Below, in pieces: positions 4,017 through 19,157 of a stretch of DNA of 24,000 nt; position 1 is the stretch's first letter, and each line of letters starts with the position of its first letter. The stretch lies in the NCBI GenBank assembly GCA_022560785.1, contig JADFSL010000003.1:6738-30737 (forward strand), given 5' to 3'. The DNA is from Patescibacteria group bacterium. GTDB taxonomy: Bacteria > Patescibacteriota > Minisyncoccia > Phycocordibacterales > JADFSL01. The notes under the pieces were generated by a model. The model was not told the DNA's origin. It saw nothing but the letters and a program-made list of their open reading frames with translations, and searched no databases. Made by a program: the position numbers and the translations under genes.

Positions 4017-4814
4017 GTGAAAAGTAAGAACGCAAAAATAATATTTTCTGTTCTGGGAGTACTTTCTATTATATCGGTTGGTTTTTACTACTACAGAGCG
4101 GAAATCAGTTTATATGCTTGGAATAATTACCATATATTTCCTCAAATGGTGATGGCATTCAACGAAGATGCAACACTTGCTCTTGAGGTTGGAAATTATT
4201 ATTTTAATGTATACAGTAACGGTGTATATGATTTGAAAAAAGCGGAATACCATTTTGAGAGAGCGCTTATGTTGGATTTATATGTAAAAGATGCATGGCA
4301 TCAACTTGCAAGAATAGATTTTCTTGAGGGCAATTTTGATGGCGCCATTTTTAAAATAAATAAACAGATTGAATTACACAACGATGAACTTATGTCCTCA
4401 TACTATATTCGTGGACTTATTCTTGGCTATATGGGGCGATATGATGAGGCAGAAGAAAATTTTCTGTTATTTTTAGAGTGGGATCCAAAAAATTGGGCAA
4501 CACACACTGATTTAGCGTGGGTTTATTTTTCGGGTAGTGAATATCAAAAATCCGCTGATATAGCACGTGCGGGACTTTTCTACAGCCAAACCAACCCGTG
4601 GTTACTTAATATGCTTGGTGTGGCATTAATTAATACTGGAGAAATAGATGAAGCAAAAAAAATACTTGAATTTGCGCTTGAAAATGCAAATTTATTAACT
4701 GAAACTGATTGGCATAAAGCATATCCCGGCAATAATCCAAATATTGGCATACAAGGGCTTTCAGAGATGAAAGAAGCAATACAGTATAATATTACACTTA
4801 CTGTGAGTAATTAG
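4017..4814 (+). CDS. TPR-repeat protein with N-terminal membrane anchor
   Basis: GTG start. TM IIFSVLGVLSIISVGFYYY. TPR-like helical repeats (AEYHFERALMLD, YDEAEENFLLFLEWDPKN, IDEAKKILEFAL). Confidence 0.7.
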   Translation: MKSKNAKIIFSVLGVLSIISVGFYYYRAEISLYAWNNYHIFPQMVMAFNEDATLALEVGNYYFNVYSNGVYDLKKAEYHFERALMLDLYVKDAWHQLARIDFLEGNFDGAIFKINKQIELHNDELMSSYYIRGLILGYMGRYDEAEENFLLFLEWDPKNWATHTDLAWVYFSGSEYQKSADIARAGLFYSQTNPWLLNMLGVALINTGEIDEAKKILEFALENANLLTETDWHKAYPGNNPNIGIQGLSEMKEAIQYNITLTVSN

Positions 4815-4866
4815 CTGTTAGTAACTAGTATCTTGTATTTTTAGAATAAAGTATAATGAATATACT

Positions 4867-5970
4867 GTGAATATTTTTAGAAAAGATATATCTAAAATAG
4901 GTTTTGGCATATTATTTCTTGCTATTGTTGTAATATTTGGTGGCGGTTTTTCTGATTCAGGAATTCAAAACACTTCAGTTGAAGTTGGTGTTGCAACACT
5001 GTCTCCTTTAGGTCAAGCTGGTGGATTCGCTATTCCAGCTTCGTGTCCTTCATATGTTCATGTTGTGGGTGAATGTAATCCCATAGCGCGCATCTCTCAA
5101 GATAAGGGTACGACTGAACCGGGAGAATCTTTTGTTGTTTCTTGGAGTTCAACAAGAGCTAGCTCTTGCAAGGTGCAGCACATTTTACCTGACGGAACAT
5201 ACGACTATTATGTAACTGTTACTGAATGGTATGATTATAAAGCAGGCGAGACTATTACATCTGAAGTAACAGAGGATTATTGGGCAACAGGCTTGAGTGG
5301 ATCAAAAATCACCGTACCAACTGAACTTGGAACACATAGATATAAAAATACGTGCACCAACTCTCTGGGATCAAATACTGCCTCCATAAACCACACTGTA
5401 GCCTTACCTCCGCAATGCTCGGATGGTATAGACAATGATAGCGACGGCCTTACTGATTTGGCTGACCCTAGTTGTAGCGGATCATCTGATAACGATGAGT
5501 CAAATCCAGCACAGTGCTCAGATGGAATTGACAATGATGGCGACGGTTTTGTTGATTTGGCTGACCCAGGTTGTATTTCGTCTGGTGACAATAATGAGTT
5601 TAATATTTTCCCACAATGCTCAGATCGTATAGACAACGATGGGGACGGTCTCATTGATTTGGCTGACCCCGGATGTACTGATCCTAGCGATAATAACGAA
5701 ACAGCTCCACCAGCGTCTCTGAGCTTAGAAGCAAGTCCTATTAATCTGATACGCTCCGGGACAGGAACCATAATCGTTTGGTCTGCAACAGATGTAATCA
5801 GCTGTACCATATCAGGTCCAAATGGGTTTAACTTCACCACTACAAGCGGGTCACAATCAACAGGCCCTCTCACCGAGCAGAGCACATACACACTCTCATG
5901 TGAAACAGACACTGGTCCCGTAAGTGTTGGAGTCACAGTAAATGTCCTGCCGGTATTTGAAGAGATTTAA
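4867..5970 (+). CDS. Secreted/anchored protein with three Cys/Asp-rich repeats (CSDGIDNDxDGxxDLADPxC) flanked by Ig-like beta regions
   Basis: GTG start, N-terminal TM/signal (IGFGILFLAIVVIFGGG), and three tandem 33-34-aa repeats. The antisense ORF 5277..5936 is judged an artefact. Confidence 0.7.
   Translation: MNIFRKDISKIGFGILFLAIVVIFGGGFSDSGIQNTSVEVGVATLSPLGQAGGFAIPASCPSYVHVVGECNPIARISQDKGTTEPGESFVVSWSSTRASSCKVQHILPDGTYDYYVTVTEWYDYKAGETITSEVTEDYWATGLSGSKITVPTELGTHRYKNTCTNSLGSNTASINHTVALPPQCSDGIDNDSDGLTDLADPSCSGSSDNDESNPAQCSDGIDNDGDGFVDLADPGCISSGDNNEFNIFPQCSDRIDNDGDGLIDLADPGCTDPSDNNETAPPASLSLEASPINLIRSGTGTIIVWSATDVISCTISGPNGFNFTTTSGSQSTGPLTEQSTYTLSCETDTGPVSVGVTVNVLPVFEEI
5413..5712 (+). 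repeat. 3 x ~100-bp in-frame tandem coding repeat
   Basis: Unit starts (QCSD) at 5413, 5512 and 5614. Conserved block gatttggctgaccc in each unit. Confidence 0.75.
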
Positions 5971-10607: not shown

Positions 10608-10681
10608 CTCCCCGTGGCTCAATTGGATAGAGCGGCTCCCTTCTAAGGAGCAGGTTGCAGGTTCGAGTCCTGCCGGGGAGA
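10608..10681 (+). tRNA. tRNA-Arg (anticodon UCU), no encoded CCA
   Basis: Acceptor CTCCCCG/CGGGGAG, D-arm GCTC..GAGC, anticodon arm GCTCC-CTTCTAA-GGAGC, T-arm GCAGG-TTCGAGT-CCTGC, discriminator A. Confidence 0.9.
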
Positions 10682-10816
10682 CAAATATGGTTTCCGCCAA
10701 AGGCGGACCCGCCTTTGGTGGGCGATTCCTGCCGTGGGTACAAACAATTGCAGGCCTGCCCTCCAAAATTTTGCAAAGCAAAACTTAGGAGGGTGAAAGT
10801 CCCGCTGGGGGAGACA
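10682..10816 (+). other. Two tandem short elements, each ending in a decayed copy of the tRNA-Arg 3' end
   Basis: tRNA 3' end tcctgccggggagacaa (10668-10684). Copy b is tcctgccgtgggtacaa (10727-10743). Copy d is tcccgctgggggagaca (10800-10816). Hairpins at 10697-10718 and 10759-10793. Confidence 0.5.
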
Positions 10817-11063: not shown

Positions 11064-11116
11064 AAGTAAGAAATTTTGCGATATAATACCCACAACTTTT
11101 CAAGTCCGCTCGTAGA

Positions 11117-11148: not shown

Positions 11149-11159
11149 TTTTGGTCTAG

Positions 11160-11232
11160 TGGGCGATGAGGGACTTGAACCCCCGACCTTCTCGGTGTAA
11201 ACGAGCTGCTCTACCAACTGAGCTAATCGCCC
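11160..11232 (-). tRNA. tRNA-Val (anticodon UAC), no encoded CCA
   Basis: Acceptor GGGCGAT/ATCGCCC, D-arm GCTC..GAGC, anticodon arm GCTCG-TTTACAC-CGAGA, T-arm GGGGG-TTCAAGT-CCCTC, discriminator A. Confidence 0.9.
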
Positions 11233-11356
11233 CTGTTTGTTTTAAATATACTATATATGTTTTCAAAAATAGCTACCAGCTCGTTCACACCAAGATGTAA
11301 ACGGAGAAACTATACCCCGCACAGTTTCTCCTCCACCAACTGAGCTAATCGCCCCT
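11233..11356 (-). other. Upstream partial tRNA-Val duplication (5' 22 nt) plus inverted anticodon-arm copy
   Basis: accaactgagctaatcgcccct occurs at 11213-11234 and again at 11335-11356. The plus-strand segment 11277-11294 cagctcgttcacaccaag matches the tRNA anticodon arm 16/18 in inverted orientation. Confidence 0.5.
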
Positions 11357-13848: not shown

Positions 13849-13932
13849 GCCCAGGTGGTGAAATTGGTAGACACGCTACCTTGAGGGGGTAGTGGGGGCA
13901 ACCCCGTGCTGGTTCAACTCCAGTCCTGGGCA
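13849..13932 (+). tRNA. tRNA-Leu (anticodon GAG), no encoded CCA
   Basis: Acceptor GCCCAGG/CCTGGGC, anticodon arm CTACC-TTGAGGG-GGTAG, long variable arm TGGGGGCAACCCCGT, T-arm GCTGG-TTCAACT-CCAGT, discriminator A. Confidence 0.9.
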
Positions 13933-14131
13933 CAAATACAAATAGATACTGCTGTGTGGCAGTATTTACTTATATTTTTGTGGACTGGAGTTGAACTGGA
14001 AGGGGGTCGGGGGAACATATGTTCCCCCGTGGAGGAAAACAGATCGCAGAATGCGGTCGTTAGAAACAGTGAGTTTCTAAGGCGCAACGAATGAAATGAG
14101 TGAGCAGTGAAATTTCCAGTCCTGGGCACAA
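13933..14131 (+). other. tRNA-Leu 3'-flank structured element bounded by a 17-nt direct repeat of the tRNA 3' end
   Basis: DR tccagtcctgggcacaa at 13919-13935 and 14115-14131. Anti-T-arm segment 13982-13996. Hairpins 13946-13965, 14009-14028, 14042-14058 and 14061-14079. Core shared with the tRNA-His element. Confidence 0.6.
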
Positions 14132-14140
14132 GTTATTTTT

Positions 14141-14173
14141 GTAATGAAAAAAGCGAAGGGTAGCACCCTTCGC
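14141..14173 (-). terminator. Intrinsic terminator of the CDF gene (potentially bidirectional)
   Basis: GCGAAGGG (14153-14160) / CCCTTCGC (14166-14173), loop TAGCA. On the minus strand it is followed by T6 (14152-14147). Confidence 0.7.
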
Positions 14174-14174
14174 T

Positions 14175-14807
14175 TTATGTGTTATCAGTTTCGTCATACG
14201 AATTAAATACAAGTTGAAAAGTACGATATACAATCCAACATGCAATTCCAATAGAAAGCAGTGGGTCTATTAGGATCCAACCACTTATCCAGATGAGAAT
14301 ACCTCCTATGACCACTACAACACTTTGTATGAGATCGGAGATTACATGAAAAGACAGAGCGCGATGTGCATGGTGTTTGTGCTCGCTTGCCGCACCTTCA
14401 AGGACATGGTGTTGCCAGTAGTTACCAACACCACCGATGAAGGCGACAACAATCATCACCGAACTTATTATCTCATTTGGATTCTCAAAGCGTTTGATTG
14501 CTTCAAACACTATCCAGATCACAATTAGGAACAAGAGTCCAATATTAATCCAAAAGGCGACATTGCGTACACGTTTCGCTTGAGCACCGAATCTGACGAG
14601 CACAGCAGCCAAAAGTGTTACCACGATGGCAGTACTGTCGCCGAATACATGTCCTGCATCAGCAAATAATGCAAGGCTATTCGAGACAATTGCACCAATG
14701 ATTTCAAAGATAAGAATTGCGAGAGTAATCCACAGTACCCGGGAAAGCCGTCTGACCTCACACCAACAATCGGTAGGGTCAGGGCAGTTAATAAAGTGCC
14801 CCTTCAT
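14175..14807 (-). CDS. Cation diffusion facilitator (CDF) family metal efflux protein, membrane domain only
   Basis: SNSLALFADAGHVFGDS (TM2 HxxxD-type site) and ALSFHVISDLIQS (TM5 HxxxD). Strong SD AAGGAGG at 14819-14813, 5 nt before the ATG. Confidence 0.8.
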   Translation of the reverse strand: MKGHFINCPDPTDCWCEVRRLSRVLWITLAILIFEIIGAIVSNSLALFADAGHVFGDSTAIVVTLLAAVLVRFGAQAKRVRNVAFWINIGLLFLIVIWIVFEAIKRFENPNEIISSVMIVVAFIGGVGNYWQHHVLEGAASEHKHHAHRALSFHVISDLIQSVVVVIGGILIWISGWILIDPLLSIGIACWIVYRTFQLVFNSYDETDNT

Positions 14808-15452: not shown

Positions 15453-15525
15453 GGTGGCTGTAGCTCAGCGGTAGAGCCCTCGGTTGTGGTCCGAGTGGTC
15501 GTCGGTTCGAATCCGATCAGCCACC
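15453..15525 (+). tRNA. tRNA-His (anticodon GUG) with encoded G-1, no encoded CCA
   Basis: G-1 plus acceptor GTGGCTG/CAGCCAC, discriminator C, anticodon arm CTCGG-TTGTGGT-CCGAG, T-arm GTCGG-TTCGAAT-CCGAT. Confidence 0.9.
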
Positions 15526-15708
15526 CAAGATAATATAAAAATAGCATGTGCCATTTTTATATTGACTCTGTGTGTAGTGTGTTCGGATTCGAACACGAAA
15601 GGGGTCTGGGAAACAGTTGTTTCCCCGTGGCGGAATTATTCAAACCGAGGGGTTTGAAAGCGCAGCGAACAAAGTGAGCGAGCAGTGAGTATTCCGATCA
15701 GCCACCCA
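15526..15708 (+). other. tRNA-His 3'-flank structured element bounded by a 16-nt direct repeat of the tRNA 3' end
   Basis: DR tccgatcagccaccca at 15512-15527 and 15693-15708. AT hairpin 15532-15563. Anti-T-arm segment 15583-15594. Hairpins 15608-15625 and 15639-15658. Core blocks are shared with the tRNA-Leu element. Confidence 0.6.
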
Positions 15709-15781
15709 GTAAAATCCAATACTAATTTATAGTGGATAAGTTTTGCGCTTTAAGAGTGCTAATTTTCTATACTATAGGCAT

Positions 15782-16913: not shown

Positions 16914-19157
16914 TTACAGTGTGGTGAACGACTGCTCACTTGATGTTGCGGTGTTGCTCAAGCTATCTACAGATTCTACGATAAAGTGGTAGGTCGTGCT
17001 AGCGGTGAGTCCAGTAATATCAAGCGAGTGACTTACCGTTAGTATACCATCTTCCACTTTTGGTATGCTTTCACTTATTGTGAATCCTGAAGTGGTGTCA
17101 TAGTAGACCGTACTGTCTGCATTCTCATCGGTTGTCCAAGTGACAACCGTTGTGCTTGCAGTTATATTTGCTGAAGCCACACTACTGATAACTGGTGCGG
17201 TAGTATCAGGAGCTGTTGTGATGAAATGATGATCACTTGATGTTGCTGTGTTGCCTGAAGTATCGCTTGAAACAATGGTATAGAAGTAAGTTGTTCCCTC
17301 AAGTAGTCCAGAGAGCTCTATACTATGGCTCTGTGTCATGGAAGTGTTGCTGACAAAGTCTGTCTCACTGTCGCTAGTGTTGACTGGATCGGTGGTACTG
17401 CTGTAATAAACGATAGAGTCGGCATCCTCATCGGTCGTCCAAGTAATTGTCGCTGAGGTGTGGCTGTCGACCGTCTCATTTACATTACTTATAACTGGGT
17501 TTGTTGTGTCTGGTGTGGGCGGTTTGGTTGTAAATGTAAACTCATTTGACGTTGTTGCATTCCCAGACGGGTCTTCAGACAAGACGATAAAGTAGTATGT
17601 AGTTTCAGCTATCAGTCCGGCAATTATTAGTGAGTGGCTTGTTTCATAATTTGCAGAGTGCACTGATGAATCGGAAGTACTGACTCCAGAGGTCGTGTCG
17701 TAGTGAACTGTACTGTCTGAAATCTCATCAGTGTCCCATGTTATGGTTGCAGTAGTTTGAGTTGTGCTCGATGCAACATTACTGACTGTCGGTGCTGTAG
17801 TATCACCCTCTGGGGCAGTAGTGAACGAGTGAACACTTGATGTGGTTTTATTTCCAGATGGGTCTTTTGATGAAACTTCGTAGAAATACTCTGTTTCAGC
17901 AAGAAGCTCTGTTAGGTTAATACTATGTGATGTTACATCATTTGTGTTTGATACTGTTTGCGGGTCAAATGCATCATCTATAGGTGTTGAAGTAGCGTAC
18001 TCTACTTTACTATCAGCGTTTTCATCAGTAGTCCAAGTAATAGTTGCAGTTGTGTCTCCCGTTACATCACTTCCAATTGATGAAAGTACTGGATCAGTTT
18101 CATCTGGAGCGTCGTCATCTGCACTATCATCCGCACATGCACCTAACACATCCCCATGAGACAAGTGTGCTCGCGCTACAGAACTACCTACTTTTATGGT
18201 TTGCTCGTTATCTGTATTGCCAGGAGGGACATGACAGAGAGTAATCTTTCCTTTCTTTCCATCTTTTTTACCCTTTTTATTCTTCAACTCAAATTTAAAT
18301 TTGATCTCTCCATCCTCCTTCTGTTCAAATTTAAATTCAGTCTTAAGCTCGTTTTCACCATCTTTTTTCTCTGTTTTTAGTTCAATCTTTATTTTTCCCT
18401 CTTCTTCTCCTTCTTCCTGTTCAAATTTGAACTTGGATTTAAGCCCATCGCTTGAAGCAATTATCTTAATACTAACTTTTTCTTCATCATCTTTAATTGT
18501 GATCTTGAGTTCATCAAGGTTGTTCATATAATCCACAGCAAGCGTTGTCAAATCACTGATAATGTCATCAATGATAAAGAGAGCGATTTCATTCCCCTCA
18601 TCTACAAGGATGATGCGTGTGTTTTCCAGATAGCCAAGAGCCACCGTTAGCGCTTCATTTGCTTTGTCTATATCGCCCGCATCGAATACGTGTCCAGCAA
18701 GTGGCGCACTTTGTGCTGTTTCAAGATTTGTTTCCGTTATTGAGTTATTATAGAAGTTACTTGTGCCGGTGACAGCAGCAAGTGTAATCCTTGCCTCATT
18801 TAACCGCTCCTCGGCAAACCTGAGACGCAAGGTGCTTTTTTTATTTCTCTTTGTAAATACAAGTTGCATTTTCTCCGATATAATATCAATAGGAAAGAGA
18901 AAGTCTCCAGGTTTTGCATCATTTGCTGTTGCAACAGTTACTGTCGAACCTCCAACAAGAGCCACTATTAAAATGGATGCAAAAGCAAACTTCCTGCTGA
19001 AAATTGAAAAGATTGATAGCTTCTTTTCGTAAGATTTTGTTTCTATATCACGCATAATTTTAGACCACAAAACACCTTTCTCTGAATCCGAGAGTTTTAC
19101 AGGCTTTATTTTTTCCAGTTTTTTCTCAATATCATTAGATGGTGTTTCCATGTTCAT
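16914..19157 (-). CDS. Anti-sigma-like transmembrane protein: DUF5667-like domain, K/E-rich repeat region, CHxPPGN..HGD..G.C motif and 4 tandem FN3-like domains
   Basis: Start ATG at 19157 (or 19151) overlaps the sigma gene stop. TM FAFASILIVALVGGSTVTV. Four repeats of about 95 aa (TATITWTTDE.ADS.V.Y....SHS..L.GL...T.Y.F.V.S.D.SGN). Confidence 0.7.
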   Translation of the reverse strand: MNMETPSNDIEKKLEKIKPVKLSDSEKGVLWSKIMRDIETKSYEKKLSIFSIFSRKFAFASILIVALVGGSTVTVATANDAKPGDFLFPIDIISEKMQLVFTKRNKKSTLRLRFAEERLNEARITLAAVTGTSNFYNNSITETNLETAQSAPLAGHVFDAGDIDKANEALTVALGYLENTRIILVDEGNEIALFIIDDIISDLTTLAVDYMNNLDELKITIKDDEEKVSIKIIASSDGLKSKFKFEQEEGEEEGKIKIELKTEKKDGENELKTEFKFEQKEDGEIKFKFELKNKKGKKDGKKGKITLCHVPPGNTDNEQTIKVGSSVARAHLSHGDVLGACADDSADDDAPDETDPVLSSIGSDVTGDTTATITWTTDENADSKVEYATSTPIDDAFDPQTVSNTNDVTSHSINLTELLAETEYFYEVSSKDPSGNKTTSSVHSFTTAPEGDTTAPTVSNVASSTTQTTATITWDTDEISDSTVHYDTTSGVSTSDSSVHSANYETSHSLIIAGLIAETTYYFIVLSEDPSGNATTSNEFTFTTKPPTPDTTNPVISNVNETVDSHTSATITWTTDEDADSIVYYSSTTDPVNTSDSETDFVSNTSMTQSHSIELSGLLEGTTYFYTIVSSDTSGNTATSSDHHFITTAPDTTAPVISSVASANITASTTVVTWTTDENADSTVYYDTTSGFTISESIPKVEDGILTVSHSLDITGLTASTTYHFIVESVDSLSNTATSSEQSFTTL

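What the first reader, a model, noticed from the sequence alone, without database searches (positions are those of the whole stretch)
13912..14131. ORF-poor structured element after tRNA-Leu, beginning with an anti-T-arm segment and ending in a perfect 17-nt copy of the tRNA 3' end
The element has five parts in order.
- Direct repeat: TCCAGTCCTGGGCACAA occurs at 13919-13935 (T-loop nt 60 through acceptor, discriminator and 3 more nt) and again at 14115-14131.
- Hairpin: just after the tRNA there is an AT-rich hairpin (ATACTGC-TGTGTG-GCAGTAT, 13946-13965) followed by a T-rich run.
- Anti-T-arm: 13982-13996 GGACTGGAGTTGAAC is a 15/15 reverse complement of the tRNA T-arm (13912-13926). It can also pair 8 bp with the distal repeat (GGACTGGA/TCCAGTCC), so three mutually exclusive pairings exist.
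- Core: three hairpins follow (14009-14028 GGGGGAAC-ATAT-GTTCCCCC; 14042-14058; 14061-14079).
- Tail: a purine-rich tail GCGCAACGAA..GAGTGAGCAGTGAA leads into the repeat.
Repeat boundaries in the T-loop and just past the tRNA end are the classic footprint of site-specific integration into a tRNA gene. However, the insert is only about 180 nt and has no recombinase. It also shares a core with the element at a different tRNA (His). Options are a miniature non-autonomous tRNA-targeting element whose anti-T-arm segment helps select its target, or a co-transcribed RNA acting on tRNA maturation or as a 3'-end decoy. I know of no described family with this architecture.
Basis: seen in the sequence. 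Interest (0 to 1): 0.88.

Follow-up and report, generated by a model that had tools for sequence, protein, structure and literature searches.

The report
Small mobile element behind tRNA genes
A ~200-base stretch with no protein gene sits directly behind a leucine tRNA gene; it has a folded core framed by a mirror copy and a direct copy of the tRNA's tail, and it belongs to an apparently undescribed family that has inserted behind many different tRNA genes of the tiny 'CPR' bacteria by a mechanism not yet known.

Summary
tRNA-Leu(GAG) lies at 13849-13933. Its last 17 nt (13919-13935) recur exactly at 14115-14131. The same layout follows tRNA-His (15454-15712). It is neither chance nor artefact: three other assemblies carry it, and DNA-pattern scans found nine more copies. 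A covariance model then scored all 11 at 85-128 bits. All are on CPR-like contigs, each behind a different tRNA, and each arm matches its own tRNA. A second family with another core but the same layout lies behind four more tRNAs. Three relatives keep the same tRNA-Leu, and two tRNA-His, without it. In one locus the tRNA's native trailer follows the distal copy, so this is an insertion with duplication of T-loop-to-3'-end. The core is a covarying fold on the tRNA-sense strand. Rfam and the papers searched have nothing like it, and no recombinase or reverse transcriptase lies nearby. Best reading: a non-autonomous tRNA-tail-targeting mobile element. How it moves (RNA copy, folded-DNA recombination or RNA-guided) is unresolved.

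The parts
13849..13933 (+). tRNA-Leu(GAG), intact; this is the insertion target.
   Evidence: ARAGORN; Rfam tRNA, 50.4 bits.
13919..13935 (+). Proximal copy of the duplicated segment S. It runs from T-loop nt 60 through the T-stem 3' strand, acceptor 3' strand and discriminator, plus CAA.
   Evidence: Exact 17-nt repeat.
13936..13981 (+). A-rich trailer, terminator-like hairpin H1 (stem 13946-13952 / 13959-13965) and a T-rich run. TTTGT at 13977-13981 mirrors ACAAA at 13932-13936.
   Evidence: Called terminator-like on both strands. Segment 13912-13996 folds as one long hairpin, dG -43 kcal/mol, z -9.5.
13982..13996 (+). Anti segment: a 15/15 reverse complement of tRNA nt 53-67 (13912-13926). 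It is the 5' strand of closing helix P1.
   Evidence: (inverted pair I1).
13997..14008 (+). Conserved junction TGGAAGGGGGTC (family consensus NN-GRAAGGGGUC).
   Evidence: Alignments.
14009..14028 (+). Hairpin H2 (GGGGGAAC-ATAT-GTTCCCCC).
   Evidence: Six of its 7 pairs show changes on both sides across the family.
14029..14041 (+). Conserved junction GTGGAGGAA (consensus GYGGMGGAA) plus linker.
14042..14058 (+). Copy-specific extra hairpin GATCGCA-GAA-TGCGGTC. The His copy lacks it; L008 and L027 have other inserts at this position.
14060..14080 (+). Hairpin H3 (TTAGAAAC-AGTGA-GTTTCTAA; family form UUxAAACC-loop-GGUUUxAA).
   Evidence: Five of its 8 pairs show changes on both sides.
14082..14105 (+). 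Conserved hairpin with tandem G.A pairs (K-turn-like): GCGCAACGAA-T-GAA-A-TGAGTGAGC.
   Evidence: The most conserved block, used as the scan pattern. The pairs Y-R (U-A / C-G / U.G) and R-Y (G-C / A-U / G.U) covary.
14107..14122 (+). 3' strand of closing helix P1 (GTGAAATTTCCAGTCC). It pairs with 13982-13996 and includes a tandem G.A (CGAAC / GUGAG in most copies).
   Evidence: helices 1 and 2, 89-100% paired.
14115..14131 (+). Distal copy of S; right end of the element.
14150..14176 (.). Bidirectional terminator shared with the convergent cation-efflux gene. It lies outside the element and is probably the locus's original terminator.
   Evidence: the gene is identified.
15454..15526 (+). tRNA-His(GTG), host of the second copy.
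15527..15712 (+). Second family-1 copy. Hairpin H1 is at 15532-15563, the anti segment at 15582-15594, the core at 15595-15692 and the distal repeat at 15693-15708 (identical to 15512-15527).
   Evidence: (D10). It is the best hit to model R1, 128.5 bits.

Best explanation
WHAT IT IS (confidence about 0.65-0.7). Window 13934-14131 is one copy of an apparently undescribed family of non-autonomous insertion elements, 140-200 bp long and without a protein gene. They occur in CPR/Patescibacteria bacteria and insert into the 3' part of tRNA genes, in the tRNA's orientation.

Insertion duplicates the tRNA from T-loop nt 56-60 to the discriminator plus 0-3 nt (occasionally much further). The tRNA therefore stays intact, and a second 'tail' copy ends up at the far side of the element.

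Each copy has four parts in order:
1. An A-rich trailer with a terminator-like hairpin.
2. An arm complementary to its host tRNA's T-loop and T-stem 3' strand, with a degenerate or partly deleted complement of the acceptor strand.
3. A conserved core of about 110 nt, which in family 1 holds two hairpins (H2, H3; some copies add a third) and a tandem-G.A (K-turn-like) hairpin joined by G/A-rich junctions.
4. The distal tail copy.

The arm pairs with the distal tail copy to close the core (helix P1). Alternatively it pairs with the tRNA's own tail across the terminator hairpin. In a unit-length or circular form these two helices are the same helix.

HOW IT WORKS (inferred). The mobile unit is the stretch from just after one discriminator to the next. 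The tRNA-matched helix is the target-recognition and attachment device. The enzyme acts in trans and is not encoded nearby.

Preferred route (absolute probability about 0.3):
- The unit is read through from the tRNA promoter as a 3' trailer.
- tRNA 3'-end processing cuts it at both discriminators.
- The fold places a tRNA-like 3' end on the arm.
- That end anneals to a nicked tRNA gene at the T-loop, and a reverse transcriptase supplied in trans copies the RNA into DNA.
- A staggered second nick then gives the variable duplication.

A DNA-only route through a folded attachment hairpin is almost as likely (see rivals).

Shown: family membership, tRNA matching, insertion polymorphism, target duplication, a covarying fold on the tRNA-sense strand.
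Inferred: transcription, processing, the enzyme, and the order of events.
For: Family and tRNA linkage:
- A scan for the conserved 3' block gave 8 metagenomic loci (one locus seen on two contigs) and 2 genome hits, Ca. Liptonbacteria and bacterium SZUA-485.
- Every true hit lies about 140-270 nt downstream of a tRNA (most 140-200). With the window's two copies that makes 11 different tRNA genes.
- Covariance model R1 scores these 11 at 85-128 bits. Its next hit in 135 kb scores 16.9 bits.

Same layout, different core:
- Family 2 lies behind tRNA-His (L035), tRNA-Val and tRNA-Ser (L033) and tRNA-Ser (L029).

Matching to the element's own tRNA:
- The distal copy ranks its own tRNA first in 13 of 15 copies.
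- Exact repeats of 14-21 nt occur in 7 copies and 56 nt in one.
- The anti segment follows all 11 variant T-loop positions (read).

Insertion rather than ancestral feature:
- Relatives L032, L035 and L036 keep tRNA-Leu(GAG), and L032 and L033 keep tRNA-His, with no element. L032 and L035 have the identical T-arm and 3' end.
- In L029 the trailer after the distal copy of tRNA-Ser(GGA) is 33/38 identical to the trailer directly after the paralogous tRNA-Ser(CGA). None of 2000 shuffles scored as high.

Structure:
- 88% of cells are paired and 17 pairs show changes on both sides. None of 500 shuffles reached this, and slid controls gave 31-54% paired.
- The tRNA-sense strand folds 2-11 kcal/mol better than the antisense strand in 11 of 11 copies.
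- The stretch from tail through hairpin to anti segment folds as a long, mostly continuous hairpin in all 15 copies, z -2.6 to -12.8.

Non-autonomous:
- All genes in the window have housekeeping Pfam assignments or none. None is an integrase, transposase or reverse transcriptase.

Hints for the RNA route:
- The orientation is always that of the tRNA.
- No promoter-like site lies between the tRNA and the core.
- The unit's ends coincide with tRNA 3'-processing sites.
- The duplication has one fixed end and one variable end (14-21 nt, and 56 nt).
- Two distal copies end in CCA where the adjacent gene has TTT or CAG (L006, L008).
Against: - No mobilising enzyme was identified anywhere.
- No excised form, circle junction or transcript was observed.
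- A terminator-like hairpin lies between the tRNA and the core in most copies. That should limit read-through and argues against the RNA route.
- In five copies (L003, L005, L008, L027, L029 family 1) the distal copy differs from the neighbouring tRNA. In L029 family 1 the native trailer follows the tRNA itself. These copies do not fit a simple 'fresh duplication' and need decay or secondary events.
- G.U versus A.C counts in the modelled helices (16 vs 11) do not by themselves fix the strand.
- The filled-versus-empty comparison for the window's own Leu site is between genomes too diverged for the flanks to align. The exact boundaries here are inferred from other copies.
- Only 15 copies were available because the collection scans were capped.
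Confidence: 0.62

Rival explanations
1. The same mobile element, but DNA-only. It would be a miniature, integrase-less integrative element whose attachment site is a folded hairpin made of the tail copy paired with the anti arm. This resembles the single-strand attP of phage CTX or an integron attC. A tyrosine (Xer/IntI-like) recombinase encoded elsewhere would recombine it with the T-loop region of a matching tRNA gene. The direct repeats are then the homology shared by element and target.
For: - Repeat limits from T-loop to tRNA 3' end are the classical footprint of tRNA-targeting integrases (my knowledge of Williams 2002).
- The element supplies a terminator behind the tRNA, as integrative elements often do.
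- Helix P1 is an imperfect inverted repeat with a bulged or deleted middle, like folded attachment sites.
- The stable C-GAA-G-type loops work in DNA as well as in RNA.
- Viral contig L022 has a tyrosine integrase. Just upstream lie an inverted pair of tRNA-3'-end fragments and a weak match to model R1 (16.9 bits; E about 0.02 in the full search; 0.001 on L022 alone).
Against: - No integrase lies near any of the 15 copies, and tblastn with the L022 integrase finds nothing in the CPR loci.
- The junction shows no recombinase-type inverted core sites around a 6-8 bp overlap. The left side is the constant GUGAG.
- A 56-nt duplication (L009) and variable repeat ends are unusual for site-specific recombination.
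- Campbell-type entry into a non-identical tRNA would leave a chimeric tRNA, yet the two families together lie behind 15 different tRNA genes.
- L022 was found by a pattern that forces part of the match.
Confidence: 0.25
2. An orphan guide-RNA module. The core would be the scaffold, and the anti and sense arms would be guides that pair with the two strands of the tRNA gene. An RNA-guided recombinase or nuclease encoded elsewhere (IS110/IS1111-like or Tas/Nop-domain-like) would insert or maintain the module.
For: - The arms match both strands of the target and change with the tRNA while the scaffold is conserved.
- Dual-strand guide systems exist in CPR bacteria (TIGR-Tas, PMC12045711).
- Stand-alone copies of an IS110-family sRNA gene are reported in the abstract of PMC12288879.
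- A G.A-rich, box-C/D-like motif is present.
Against: - The two arms cover the same target segment and pair with each other. In bridge RNAs and tigRNAs the guides lie side by side.
- There is no array.
- No Nop-domain or DEDD recombinase gene is in the window.
- IS110 elements duplicate only a 2-nt core, not 14-56 nt.
- The CCA/UG boxes described for tigRNAs are not evident.
Confidence: 0.08
3. A host-beneficial small RNA gene, expressed dicistronically with the tRNA and released by RNase Z. It would act on its cognate tRNA, for example through T-arm pairing for modification, quality control or sequestration, or as a 3'-end decoy. On this view it is not a selfish element.
For: - The core fold is strongly conserved across distant CPR lineages.
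- The orientation is the same as the tRNA and no promoter of its own was found.
- The arm is complementary to the tRNA's T-loop, including tRNA-specific variants.
- There is precedent for tRNA-sRNA dicistronic genes processed by RNase Z (plant tRNA-snoRNA, cited in PMC12045711).
Against: - It is patchy. It is absent at the same tRNAs in relatives and lies behind different tRNAs in different genomes.
- Two unrelated cores occupy the same niche, and family 1 and family 2 sit at the same tRNA-His in two relatives.
- Decayed copies and fragments exist (window tRNA-Arg and tRNA-Val; L032), as expected of selfish DNA.
- The terminator stands between the tRNA and the core.
Confidence: 0.12
4. A scar of a conventional large integrated element (prophage or island). 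The attL and attR ends would have been left next to each other after internal deletion.
For: The direct repeats of the tRNA 3' end resemble attL/attR.
Against: - Eleven independent loci share the same 110-nt core with the same ends, which random deletions would not produce.
- The core shows compensatory base changes.
- No phage or island genes flank any copy.
Confidence: 0.03
5. A T-loop intron or split/permuted tRNA arrangement, in which the distal copy is the real 3' end of the tRNA.
For: - The anti segment could hold exon-like sequences together.
- Archaeal tRNA introns at T-loop positions carry exon-complementary segments (my knowledge).
Against: - The contiguous gene already folds as a complete tRNA.
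- These are bacteria with an ordinary RNase P RNA (L029), and bacteria are not known to have a tRNA splicing endonuclease (my knowledge).
- There is no group I or group II intron signal in Rfam.
- The distal copies have decayed in five loci without loss of the tRNA.
Confidence: 0.01

Closest known systems
tRNA-gene-targeting integrative elements with tyrosine integrases (T-loop class of attachment sites)
   Same: - Insertion at the 3' part of a tRNA gene.
- A direct repeat running from the T-loop to the tRNA end.
- The tRNA is kept functional and the orientation is fixed.
   Different: - Those elements are kilobases long and carry their integrase next to the site. Here 140-200 bp carry no gene.
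- They have no conserved covarying core and no anti arm.
- They do not show one near-identical core at 11 different tRNA genes.
MITEs and other small bacterial intergenic repeats (REP/BIME, Correia, RUP, BOX)
   Same: Small, non-coding, hairpin-forming and non-autonomous; presence varies between relatives.
   Different: - MITE terminal inverted repeats are element-specific and their target duplications are 2-10 bp.
- Here the inverted arms are derived from or matched to the target.
- The duplication is 14-21 nt (once 56).
- Every copy is tied to a tRNA tail.
Folded single-strand attachment sites: integron attC and phage CTX attP(+)
   Same: - An imperfect inverted repeat with an unpaired middle and a variable terminal structure.
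- Structure is conserved more than sequence.
- The hairpin mimics the chromosomal target (CTX attP mimics dif).
   Different: - No IntI or Xer gene is linked.
- There are no R/L boxes or GTTRRRY core.
- The 'loop' is a conserved multi-hairpin domain.
- The target is a tRNA gene.
RNA-guided insertion and targeting RNAs: IS110/IS1111 bridge and seek RNAs, TIGR-Tas tigRNAs (PMC11208160, PMC12045711)
   Same: - A conserved scaffold with variable segments that match both strands of the target.
- TIGR-Tas systems occur in CPR bacteria.
   Different: - No adjacent recombinase or Nop-domain gene, and no array.
- The guides overlap and pair with each other.
- The target duplication is long.
RNAs and retroelements that ride on tRNA genes: tRNA-derived SINEs, plant dicistronic tRNA-snoRNA genes, Mauriceville retroplasmid
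   Same: - Use of a tRNA promoter and tRNA end-processing.
- A tRNA-like 3' end, with CCA in two copies.
- A variable-length target duplication with one fixed end.
   Different: - All of these are eukaryotic or organellar.
- No reverse transcriptase is linked here and there is no A-tail.
- A terminator lies between the tRNA and the element.
- This is a comparison of how it might work, not a membership claim.
Mobile tRNA introns of Thermoproteales archaea (my knowledge of Fujishima et al. 2010)
   Same: Related short sequences found in different tRNAs, with segments complementary to the adjacent tRNA sequence.
   Different: - Those interrupt the tRNA and need the splicing endonuclease.
- Here the tRNA is uninterrupted and the host is bacterial.

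Membership tests
Any Rfam 15 family | Match to a curated covariance model | tested here: not met
   Only tRNA reaches the gathering score. With permissive E-values the region gives only weak generic long-hairpin (miRNA-model) hits far below threshold. Five related loci gave no hit on family 1 or family 2 elements.
Tyrosine-integrase integrative element at a tRNA gene | Direct repeat of the tRNA 3' part (T-loop to 3' end) flanking the insert | tested here: met
   17-nt exact repeat here; 14-21 nt in six other copies and 56 nt in one.
Tyrosine-integrase integrative element at a tRNA gene | Integrase gene inside the element, next to the attachment site | tested here: not met
   The insert is 196 nt with no credible ORF. 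The window's genes are housekeeping. tblastn with a viral integrase finds nothing in the CPR loci.
Tyrosine-integrase integrative element at a tRNA gene | Inverted core-type binding sites around a 6-8 bp overlap at both junctions | tested here: inconclusive
   At the right junction the T-stem 5' strand is replaced by the constant GCAGUGAG, which is not an inverted copy of the T-stem 3' strand. No binding data exist.
MITE | Terminal inverted repeats conserved between copies of a family | tested here: not met
   The inverted arms differ between copies and follow each host tRNA.
MITE | Short fixed-length target-site duplication | tested here: not met
   Duplications are 14-21 nt and 56 nt, with variable right ends.
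IS110/IS1111 element or orphan bridge/seek RNA | DEDD/RuvC-like recombinase gene adjacent; duplication of only the 2-nt core | tested here: not met
   There is no such gene, and the duplication is long.
IS110/IS1111 element or orphan bridge/seek RNA | Two internal loops carrying side-by-side guides for target and donor | tested here: inconclusive
   The consensus fold puts the two tRNA-matching segments opposite each other in one helix. No donor-type loop is recognisable.
TIGR-Tas | Array of repeat units with two 8-12 nt spacers, next to a Nop-domain gene | tested here: not met
   The copies are single, not arrayed, and Pfam finds no Nop domain. Features taken from PMC12045711.
Integron attC / CTX-type folded attachment site | Imperfect hairpin with an unpaired centre that mimics or pairs like the target | tested here: met
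   The P1 and tail/anti hairpins have bulged or deleted acceptor parts.
Integron attC / CTX-type folded attachment site | Conserved R/L boxes (RYYYAAC ... GTTRRRY), or dif-like XerC/D half-sites, with a linked IntI or Xer dependence | tested here: not met
   The Leu T-loop fits the GTTRRRY pattern by accident, but the His copy and most others (TTCGAAT) do not. No intI is present in the window. Xer dependence cannot be tested here.
K-turn / box C/D-type RNA | C-stem, 3-nt bulge, tandem sheared G.A pairs, NC-stem; binding by an L7Ae-family protein | tested here: inconclusive
   Sequence 14082-14105 can be drawn as CGC-[AAC]-GA-AU ... AU-GA-GUG, or as a continuous helix with tandem G.A. The flanking pairs covary.
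Group I/II intron or archaeal bulge-helix-bulge tRNA intron | Interrupts the gene; has a ribozyme core or bulge-helix-bulge motif | tested here: not met
   The tRNA is contiguous and there are no intron models in Rfam output.
Retron / other bacterial retroelement ncRNA | Adjacent reverse transcriptase gene | tested here: not met
   No reverse transcriptase domain in the window.
SINE-like retroposon (works-like comparison only) | RNA intermediate made from a tRNA promoter; target-primed reverse transcription | not testable with these tools
   There are only indirect hints: orientation, unit ends at tRNA processing sites, variable duplication, and CCA in L006 and L008.

The most novel reading that the evidence does not exclude
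These are the first bacterial SINE-like or viroid-like retro-elements. On this reading each is a unit-length RNA cut out of tRNA read-through transcripts by the cell's own tRNA 3'-end machinery. The RNA folds so that its tRNA-matched arm splints its two ends, giving a tRNA-like, CCA-accepting and possibly circularisable molecule. It is then copied back into the T-loop of a matching tRNA gene by a reverse transcriptase supplied in trans, and each insertion automatically renews the tail copy. A variant is an orphan guide RNA that directs a trans-acting RNA-guided recombinase to both strands of tRNA genes.
Probability: 0.28. Interest if true: 0.95.

Novelty: new variant of a known kind. Interest (0 to 1): 0.78.

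Why it matters
- tRNA genes are the classic landing sites for mobile DNA, but the known users are large elements that bring their own integrase. Here a 200-bp passenger with a conserved, covarying fold does the same job with no enzyme of its own. It also keeps a mirror image of its target inside itself.
- At least two unrelated cores share the layout, so the layout itself appears to be the functional principle.
- If the route is RNA-based or RNA-guided, it would be a new way for bacterial selfish elements to move and to retarget. It would occur in the CPR lineages, where another dual-strand RNA-guided system (TIGR-Tas) has recently been described.
- If the route is DNA-based, it would extend folded-hairpin attachment sites from dif and integrons to tRNA genes.
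- Practical consequences: these elements leave partial tRNA copies and extra hairpins that can mislead tRNA, terminator and island predictors in CPR genomes. They also provide two new RNA-structure families for Rfam-type curation.

Tried and rejected
- **Rfam, gathering and permissive thresholds**: nothing except tRNA, RNase P and generic hairpin noise.
- **Viral-contig scan with a looser 3'-block pattern**: 16 loci, essentially all chance matches inside coding sequence. Only L022 was interesting.
- **Search for relatives of the L022 integrase**: returned only L022 itself.
- **Genome scan**: two of the four hits were chance matches in Verrucomicrobia signal-peptide coding sequence.
- **Aligning the window's Leu flanks to the empty sites in L032 and L035**, to decide which copy carries the native trailer: no significant similarity either way. 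The question was settled only in L029, for family 2.
- **Counting G.U versus A.C pairs to fix the strand**: indecisive at 16 vs 11. Comparing folding energies was clearer.
- **Looking for a promoter between tRNA and core**: none found.
- **The AAGATAA(A)T motif at the start of three elements**: it could belong to the element or be a native tRNA-His trailer. Left open.
- **Ideas considered and dropped, with the reason for each:**
  - T-box: wrong position and no Rfam match.
  - tmRNA or permuted tRNA: ARAGORN negative.
  - Retron: no reverse transcriptase.
  - IS200/605 or TnpB omega-RNA: no conserved end hairpins and no nuclease gene, and that family makes no duplication.
  - Casposon-like integration: no Cas1, and the arms are target-derived.
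  - CRISPR/TIGR arrays: no array.
  - Fold-back copying of the tRNA tail at each insertion: in L009, the copy with a perfect 56-nt duplication, only the inner 15 nt of the arm match perfectly, so the arm was not freshly copied.
- **Paper searches**: no description of such elements.
Full report
**1. The observation**

The window is a bacterial contig of the CPR/Patescibacteria type.
- Its genes include ribosomal protein L19, UppS, a pseudouridine synthase, PilM and a cation-efflux protein.
- The closest L19 proteins are labelled Patescibacteria or Paceibacteria.

ARAGORN and Rfam place tRNA-Leu(GAG) at 13849-13933.
- the exact 17-nt repeat TCCAGTCCTGGGCACAA at 13919-13935 and 14115-14131;
- the AT-rich hairpin at 13946-13965 with a T-run, scored terminator-like on both strands;
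- the 15/15 reverse complement of the T-arm at 13982-13996, which the repeat finder extends to 26 nt at 85%;
- three further hairpins.

tRNA-His (15454-15526) is followed by the same arrangement, with its own 16-nt repeat and a core that aligns block by block. Contigs from three other samples carry the Leu locus with at most three SNPs inside the element. The repeat is therefore not an assembly artefact.

**2. It is a family, and always behind a tRNA**

The two window copies share an invariant 3' block. A pattern built on it found eight metagenomic loci (two are the same locus) and two species genomes, a Candidatus Liptonbacteria MAG and 'bacterium SZUA-485'. Two other genome hits and almost all hits of a looser viral scan were chance matches in coding sequence.

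Every true hit lies about 140-270 nt (most 140-200) downstream of a tRNA gene, in the tRNA's orientation. With the window's Leu(GAG) and His(GTG), the tRNAs are:

| Amino acid | Anticodons |
|---|---|
| Leu | GAG, CAA |
| His | GTG |
| Gly | TCC |
| Glu | CTC, TTC |
| Arg | CCG, CCT |
| Lys | TTT |
| Asp | GTC |
| Ser | CGA |

A covariance model built from the 11 copies scores them at 85-128 bits. Its next hit in 135 kb of fetched DNA scores 16.9 bits.

I also scanned all 66 tRNA calls in the fetched DNA for a downstream copy of their last 15 nt (some calls are the same locus in overlapping contigs).
- The scan recovered the intact family-1 copies; those with decayed distal copies gave 3-5 mismatches.
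- It also revealed further cases.
- The upstream control never came closer than 3 mismatches.

The further cases belong to a second family (family 2) with an unrelated core but the same layout. It lies behind tRNA-His in L035, tRNA-Val and tRNA-Ser(TGA) in L033, and tRNA-Ser(GGA) in L029. A possible third type follows tRNA-Arg(GCG) in L032, together with a 14-nt fragment of the family-1 block.

**3. Anatomy**

Each copy reads, in order:
- the intact tRNA;
- an A-rich trailer;
- a terminator-like hairpin (missing in L009, weak in L027);
- an 'anti' arm;
- the core;
- a 'sense' copy of the tRNA, from T-loop nt 56-60 to the discriminator plus 0-3 nt.

The family-1 core reads NN-GRAAGGGGUC, hairpin H2, GYGGMGGAA, optional insert, hairpin H3, a hairpin with tandem G.A pairs, then AGCA and GUGAG(A)AU running into the sense copy.

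The anti arm pairs with GUGAG(A)AU plus the sense copy to form closing helix P1. The inner part of P1 (CGAAC/GUGAG) holds another tandem G.A.

Support for the fold, measured on the model-based alignment:
- 88% of cells pair and 17 of 29 pairs show changes on both sides.
- No shuffle out of 500 reaches this, and sliding the partners drops pairing to 31-54%.
- The alignment is fitted to the model, so these numbers lean in its favour. However, RNAalifold on the plain MAFFT alignment finds helices at the same four positions, though some pairs differ in register.
- The tRNA-sense strand folds better than its complement in 11 of 11 copies, whereas G.U versus A.C counts are indecisive.

The G.A hairpin (14082-14105) can be drawn as a standard K-turn or as a continuous helix with a tandem mismatch. 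I call it K-turn-like and no more.

**4. The arms are matched to the host tRNA**

- The sense copy ranks its own tRNA first in 13 of 15 copies.
- Exact repeats are 17, 16, 18, 14, 21, 19 and 19 nt, and 56 nt in L009, where the repeat runs 39 nt into the trailer.
- Much of the anti arm complements the universal T-loop, so its own tRNA ranks first in only 8 of 15 copies.
- Where a host T-loop departs from TTCGAAT (Leu TTCAACT, Arg TTCAATT, Gly TTCGATT, Leu TTCGACT, Asp TTCGAGT, Val TTCAAGT), the arm carries the complementary base at all 11 variant positions (read).
- Upstream of that, the complement of the acceptor strand is degenerate or partly deleted. In the window, TTGTG-[5 nt missing]-GGACTGGA stands against TCCAGTCC-TGGGC-ACAA.
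- The stretch from T-loop through trailer and hairpin to anti arm is a long quasi-palindrome in every copy, z -2.6 to -12.8. This explains the weak miRNA-model hits in Rfam.
- In a unit-length or circular form of the element, this hairpin and P1 are the same helix.

**5. It is an insertion**

- Relatives with 75-89% identical L19 are syntenic.
- L032 and L035 have tRNA-Leu(GAG) with the identical T-arm and 3' end but no element. L036 (with a different T-arm) also lacks it.
- L032 and L033 have tRNA-His without it.
- L035 carries a family-2 element at tRNA-His, where the window has family 1.
- The flanks of these distant empty sites do not align significantly with either flank in the window.

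The clean case is L029. The 38 nt that follow the distal copy behind tRNA-Ser(GGA) are 33/38 identical to the trailer that directly follows the paralogous tRNA-Ser(CGA), at the same offset, and none of 2000 shuffles scored as high. The element there therefore lies between the tRNA body and its native trailer, with a 19-nt duplication.

Five copies do not fit a fresh duplication. In L003, L005, L008, L027 and L029 family 1 the distal copy differs from the tRNA.
- In L008 the arm matches the distal copy rather than the tRNA.
- In L027 it is the reverse.
- In L029 family 1 the native trailer follows the tRNA itself.

I read these as old, decayed or secondarily rearranged copies, but that is an assumption.

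**6. What moves it**

Nothing in the window or the related loci encodes an integrase, transposase or reverse transcriptase. I therefore rate 'non-autonomous mobile element targeting the tRNA tail' at about 0.65-0.7 and treat the route as open.

For an RNA intermediate (about 0.3):
- fixed co-orientation with the tRNA;
- no promoter of its own;
- unit ends that coincide with tRNA 3'-processing sites;
- a duplication with one fixed and one variable end (14-21 nt, and 56 nt);
- CCA after the distal copy in L006 and L008, where the gene has TTT or CAG;
- an RNA-like fold.

Against it: the terminator between tRNA and core, and no linked reverse transcriptase.

For a DNA-only route through a folded attachment hairpin (about 0.25):
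- the classical T-loop-to-3'-end footprint;
- the attC/CTX-like imperfect hairpin;
- viral contig L022, where a tyrosine integrase lies just downstream of an inverted pair of tRNA-tail fragments, GAATAGAACCG repeats and a weak model hit.

Against it: L022 was picked by a pattern that forces part of that match, no copy has a recombinase, the junction lacks inverted core sites, and entry into non-identical tRNAs would break them.

An orphan guide module for an RNA-guided enzyme (about 0.08) is suggested by arms that match both strands, and by TIGR-Tas in CPR bacteria (PMC12045711). But there is no array and no Nop-domain gene, and the two arms overlap instead of lying side by side.

A host sRNA (about 0.12) is disfavoured by the patchy distribution, the two interchangeable cores and the decayed copies.

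**7. Comparison and novelty**

- The element behaves like a tRNA-targeting integrative element, but it fails that family's defining feature of a resident integrase.
- It is small and non-coding like a MITE, but its inverted arms are target-matched and its duplication is long.
- It resembles folded attachment sites, but it lacks their boxes and enzymes.
- It matches no Rfam family, and seven full-text searches returned no description of it.

I file it as a new variant of a known kind: small non-autonomous elements that exploit tRNA genes. I give a 0.28 chance that the mechanism turns out to be categorically new for bacteria.

Noticed in passing
window 10683-10816: tRNA-Arg(TCT) (10608-10682) is followed by two short units of about 60 and 73 nt. 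Each is made of small hairpins and ends in a degenerate copy of the tRNA-Arg 3' end (10725-10742 ATTCCTGCCGTGGGTACA; 10798-10816 AGTCCCGCTGGGGGAGACA). The second is preceded by GGGTGAA, like the family-1 end CAGTGAA. They are possibly decayed, miniaturised or nested relatives. In relative L032 only 55 nt (one terminator) separate tRNA-Arg from the convergent tRNA-Val, against 476 nt here.
   Followed up: partly
window 11096-11115 and 11328-11356: tRNA-Val(TAC) is on the minus strand at 11159-11232. Downstream of it (in its own orientation) lie a terminator and then an inverted, partly deleted copy of its T-loop and acceptor tail (plus-strand CTTTTCAAGTCCGCTCGTAG), with no recognisable core. 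Upstream of it, 11328-11356 repeats its first 27 nt plus two upstream bases at 93% identity. A hairpin and an anticodon-arm-like stretch follow, which looks like a pseudo-tRNA or the footprint of another element.
   Followed up: partly
L035 2716-2890; L033 7306-7479 (-) and 2716-2896 (-); L029 4539-4731 (-): A second element family (family 2) has a different conserved core: GAAAGCCGGAR..GAGGCGGGGU.GC.AGUACUUAG...CUUAGUAACUUGUGACC. It has the same layout of tRNA tail, hairpin, anti arm, core and tail copy. L033 Ser(TGA) keeps a 20/22 anti arm but has lost the distal copy.
   Followed up: yes
L032 1330-1498 (-), behind tRNA-Arg(GCG) 1499-1570: A possible third core type with an anti arm and a 13-nt tail copy. 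Directly after the tRNA there is also a 14-nt fragment (CGAACGAAGTGAGC) identical to the family-1 G.A hairpin. This suggests nested or recombined elements, in the same genome whose Leu and His sites are empty.
   Followed up: partly
L022 1500-2778 (viral contig IMGVR_UViG_3300018469_000082): An attP-like region has five GAATAGAACCG repeats, a full tRNA T-arm/acceptor/CCA fragment on the minus strand and an inverted partial copy 10 nt away. A stretch resembling the family-1 3' block overlaps the start of a tyrosine integrase gene. This may link these elements to integrase-type attachment regions, or it may be coincidence.
   Followed up: partly
L033 10710-11375 and L036 1657-2322: A 221-aa LAGLIDADG-type homing-endonuclease-like ORF ends 0-1 nt before tRNA-Leu(GAG) in two relatives that lack the element. 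The window has no such ORF between L19 and tRNA-Leu.
   Followed up: no
L029 3514-3603 / 4732-4819 (-) and their trailers: Two tRNA-Ser genes share a conserved trailer of about 40 nt (CCTCGCAGARGCTCGGCTYCGRCKGACACAGTCMGCAA). In the Ser(CGA) copy the trailer ends in GCGAAGGCGG, which is complementary to the tRNA end plus the first trailer bases. It could be a trailer hairpin or yet another small element.
   Followed up: no
window 15528-15540; L035 2716-2728; L010 (after tRNA-Asp): Three elements, at two tRNA-His loci (families 1 and 2) and one tRNA-Asp, begin with AAGATAA(A)T right after the tRNA. The motif occurs only 36 times in 635 kb of both strands. It is unclear whether this is the element's 5' end or a native trailer motif.
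   Followed up: partly
window 5413-5706 and 17081-18038: Tandem coding repeats: three units of about 99 nt in ORF 4867-5970 (Cys/Asp-rich), and four units of about 300 nt in the 777-aa purple-acid-phosphatase-N/FN3 protein on the minus strand. These are ordinary repeat-domain surface proteins.
   Followed up: no
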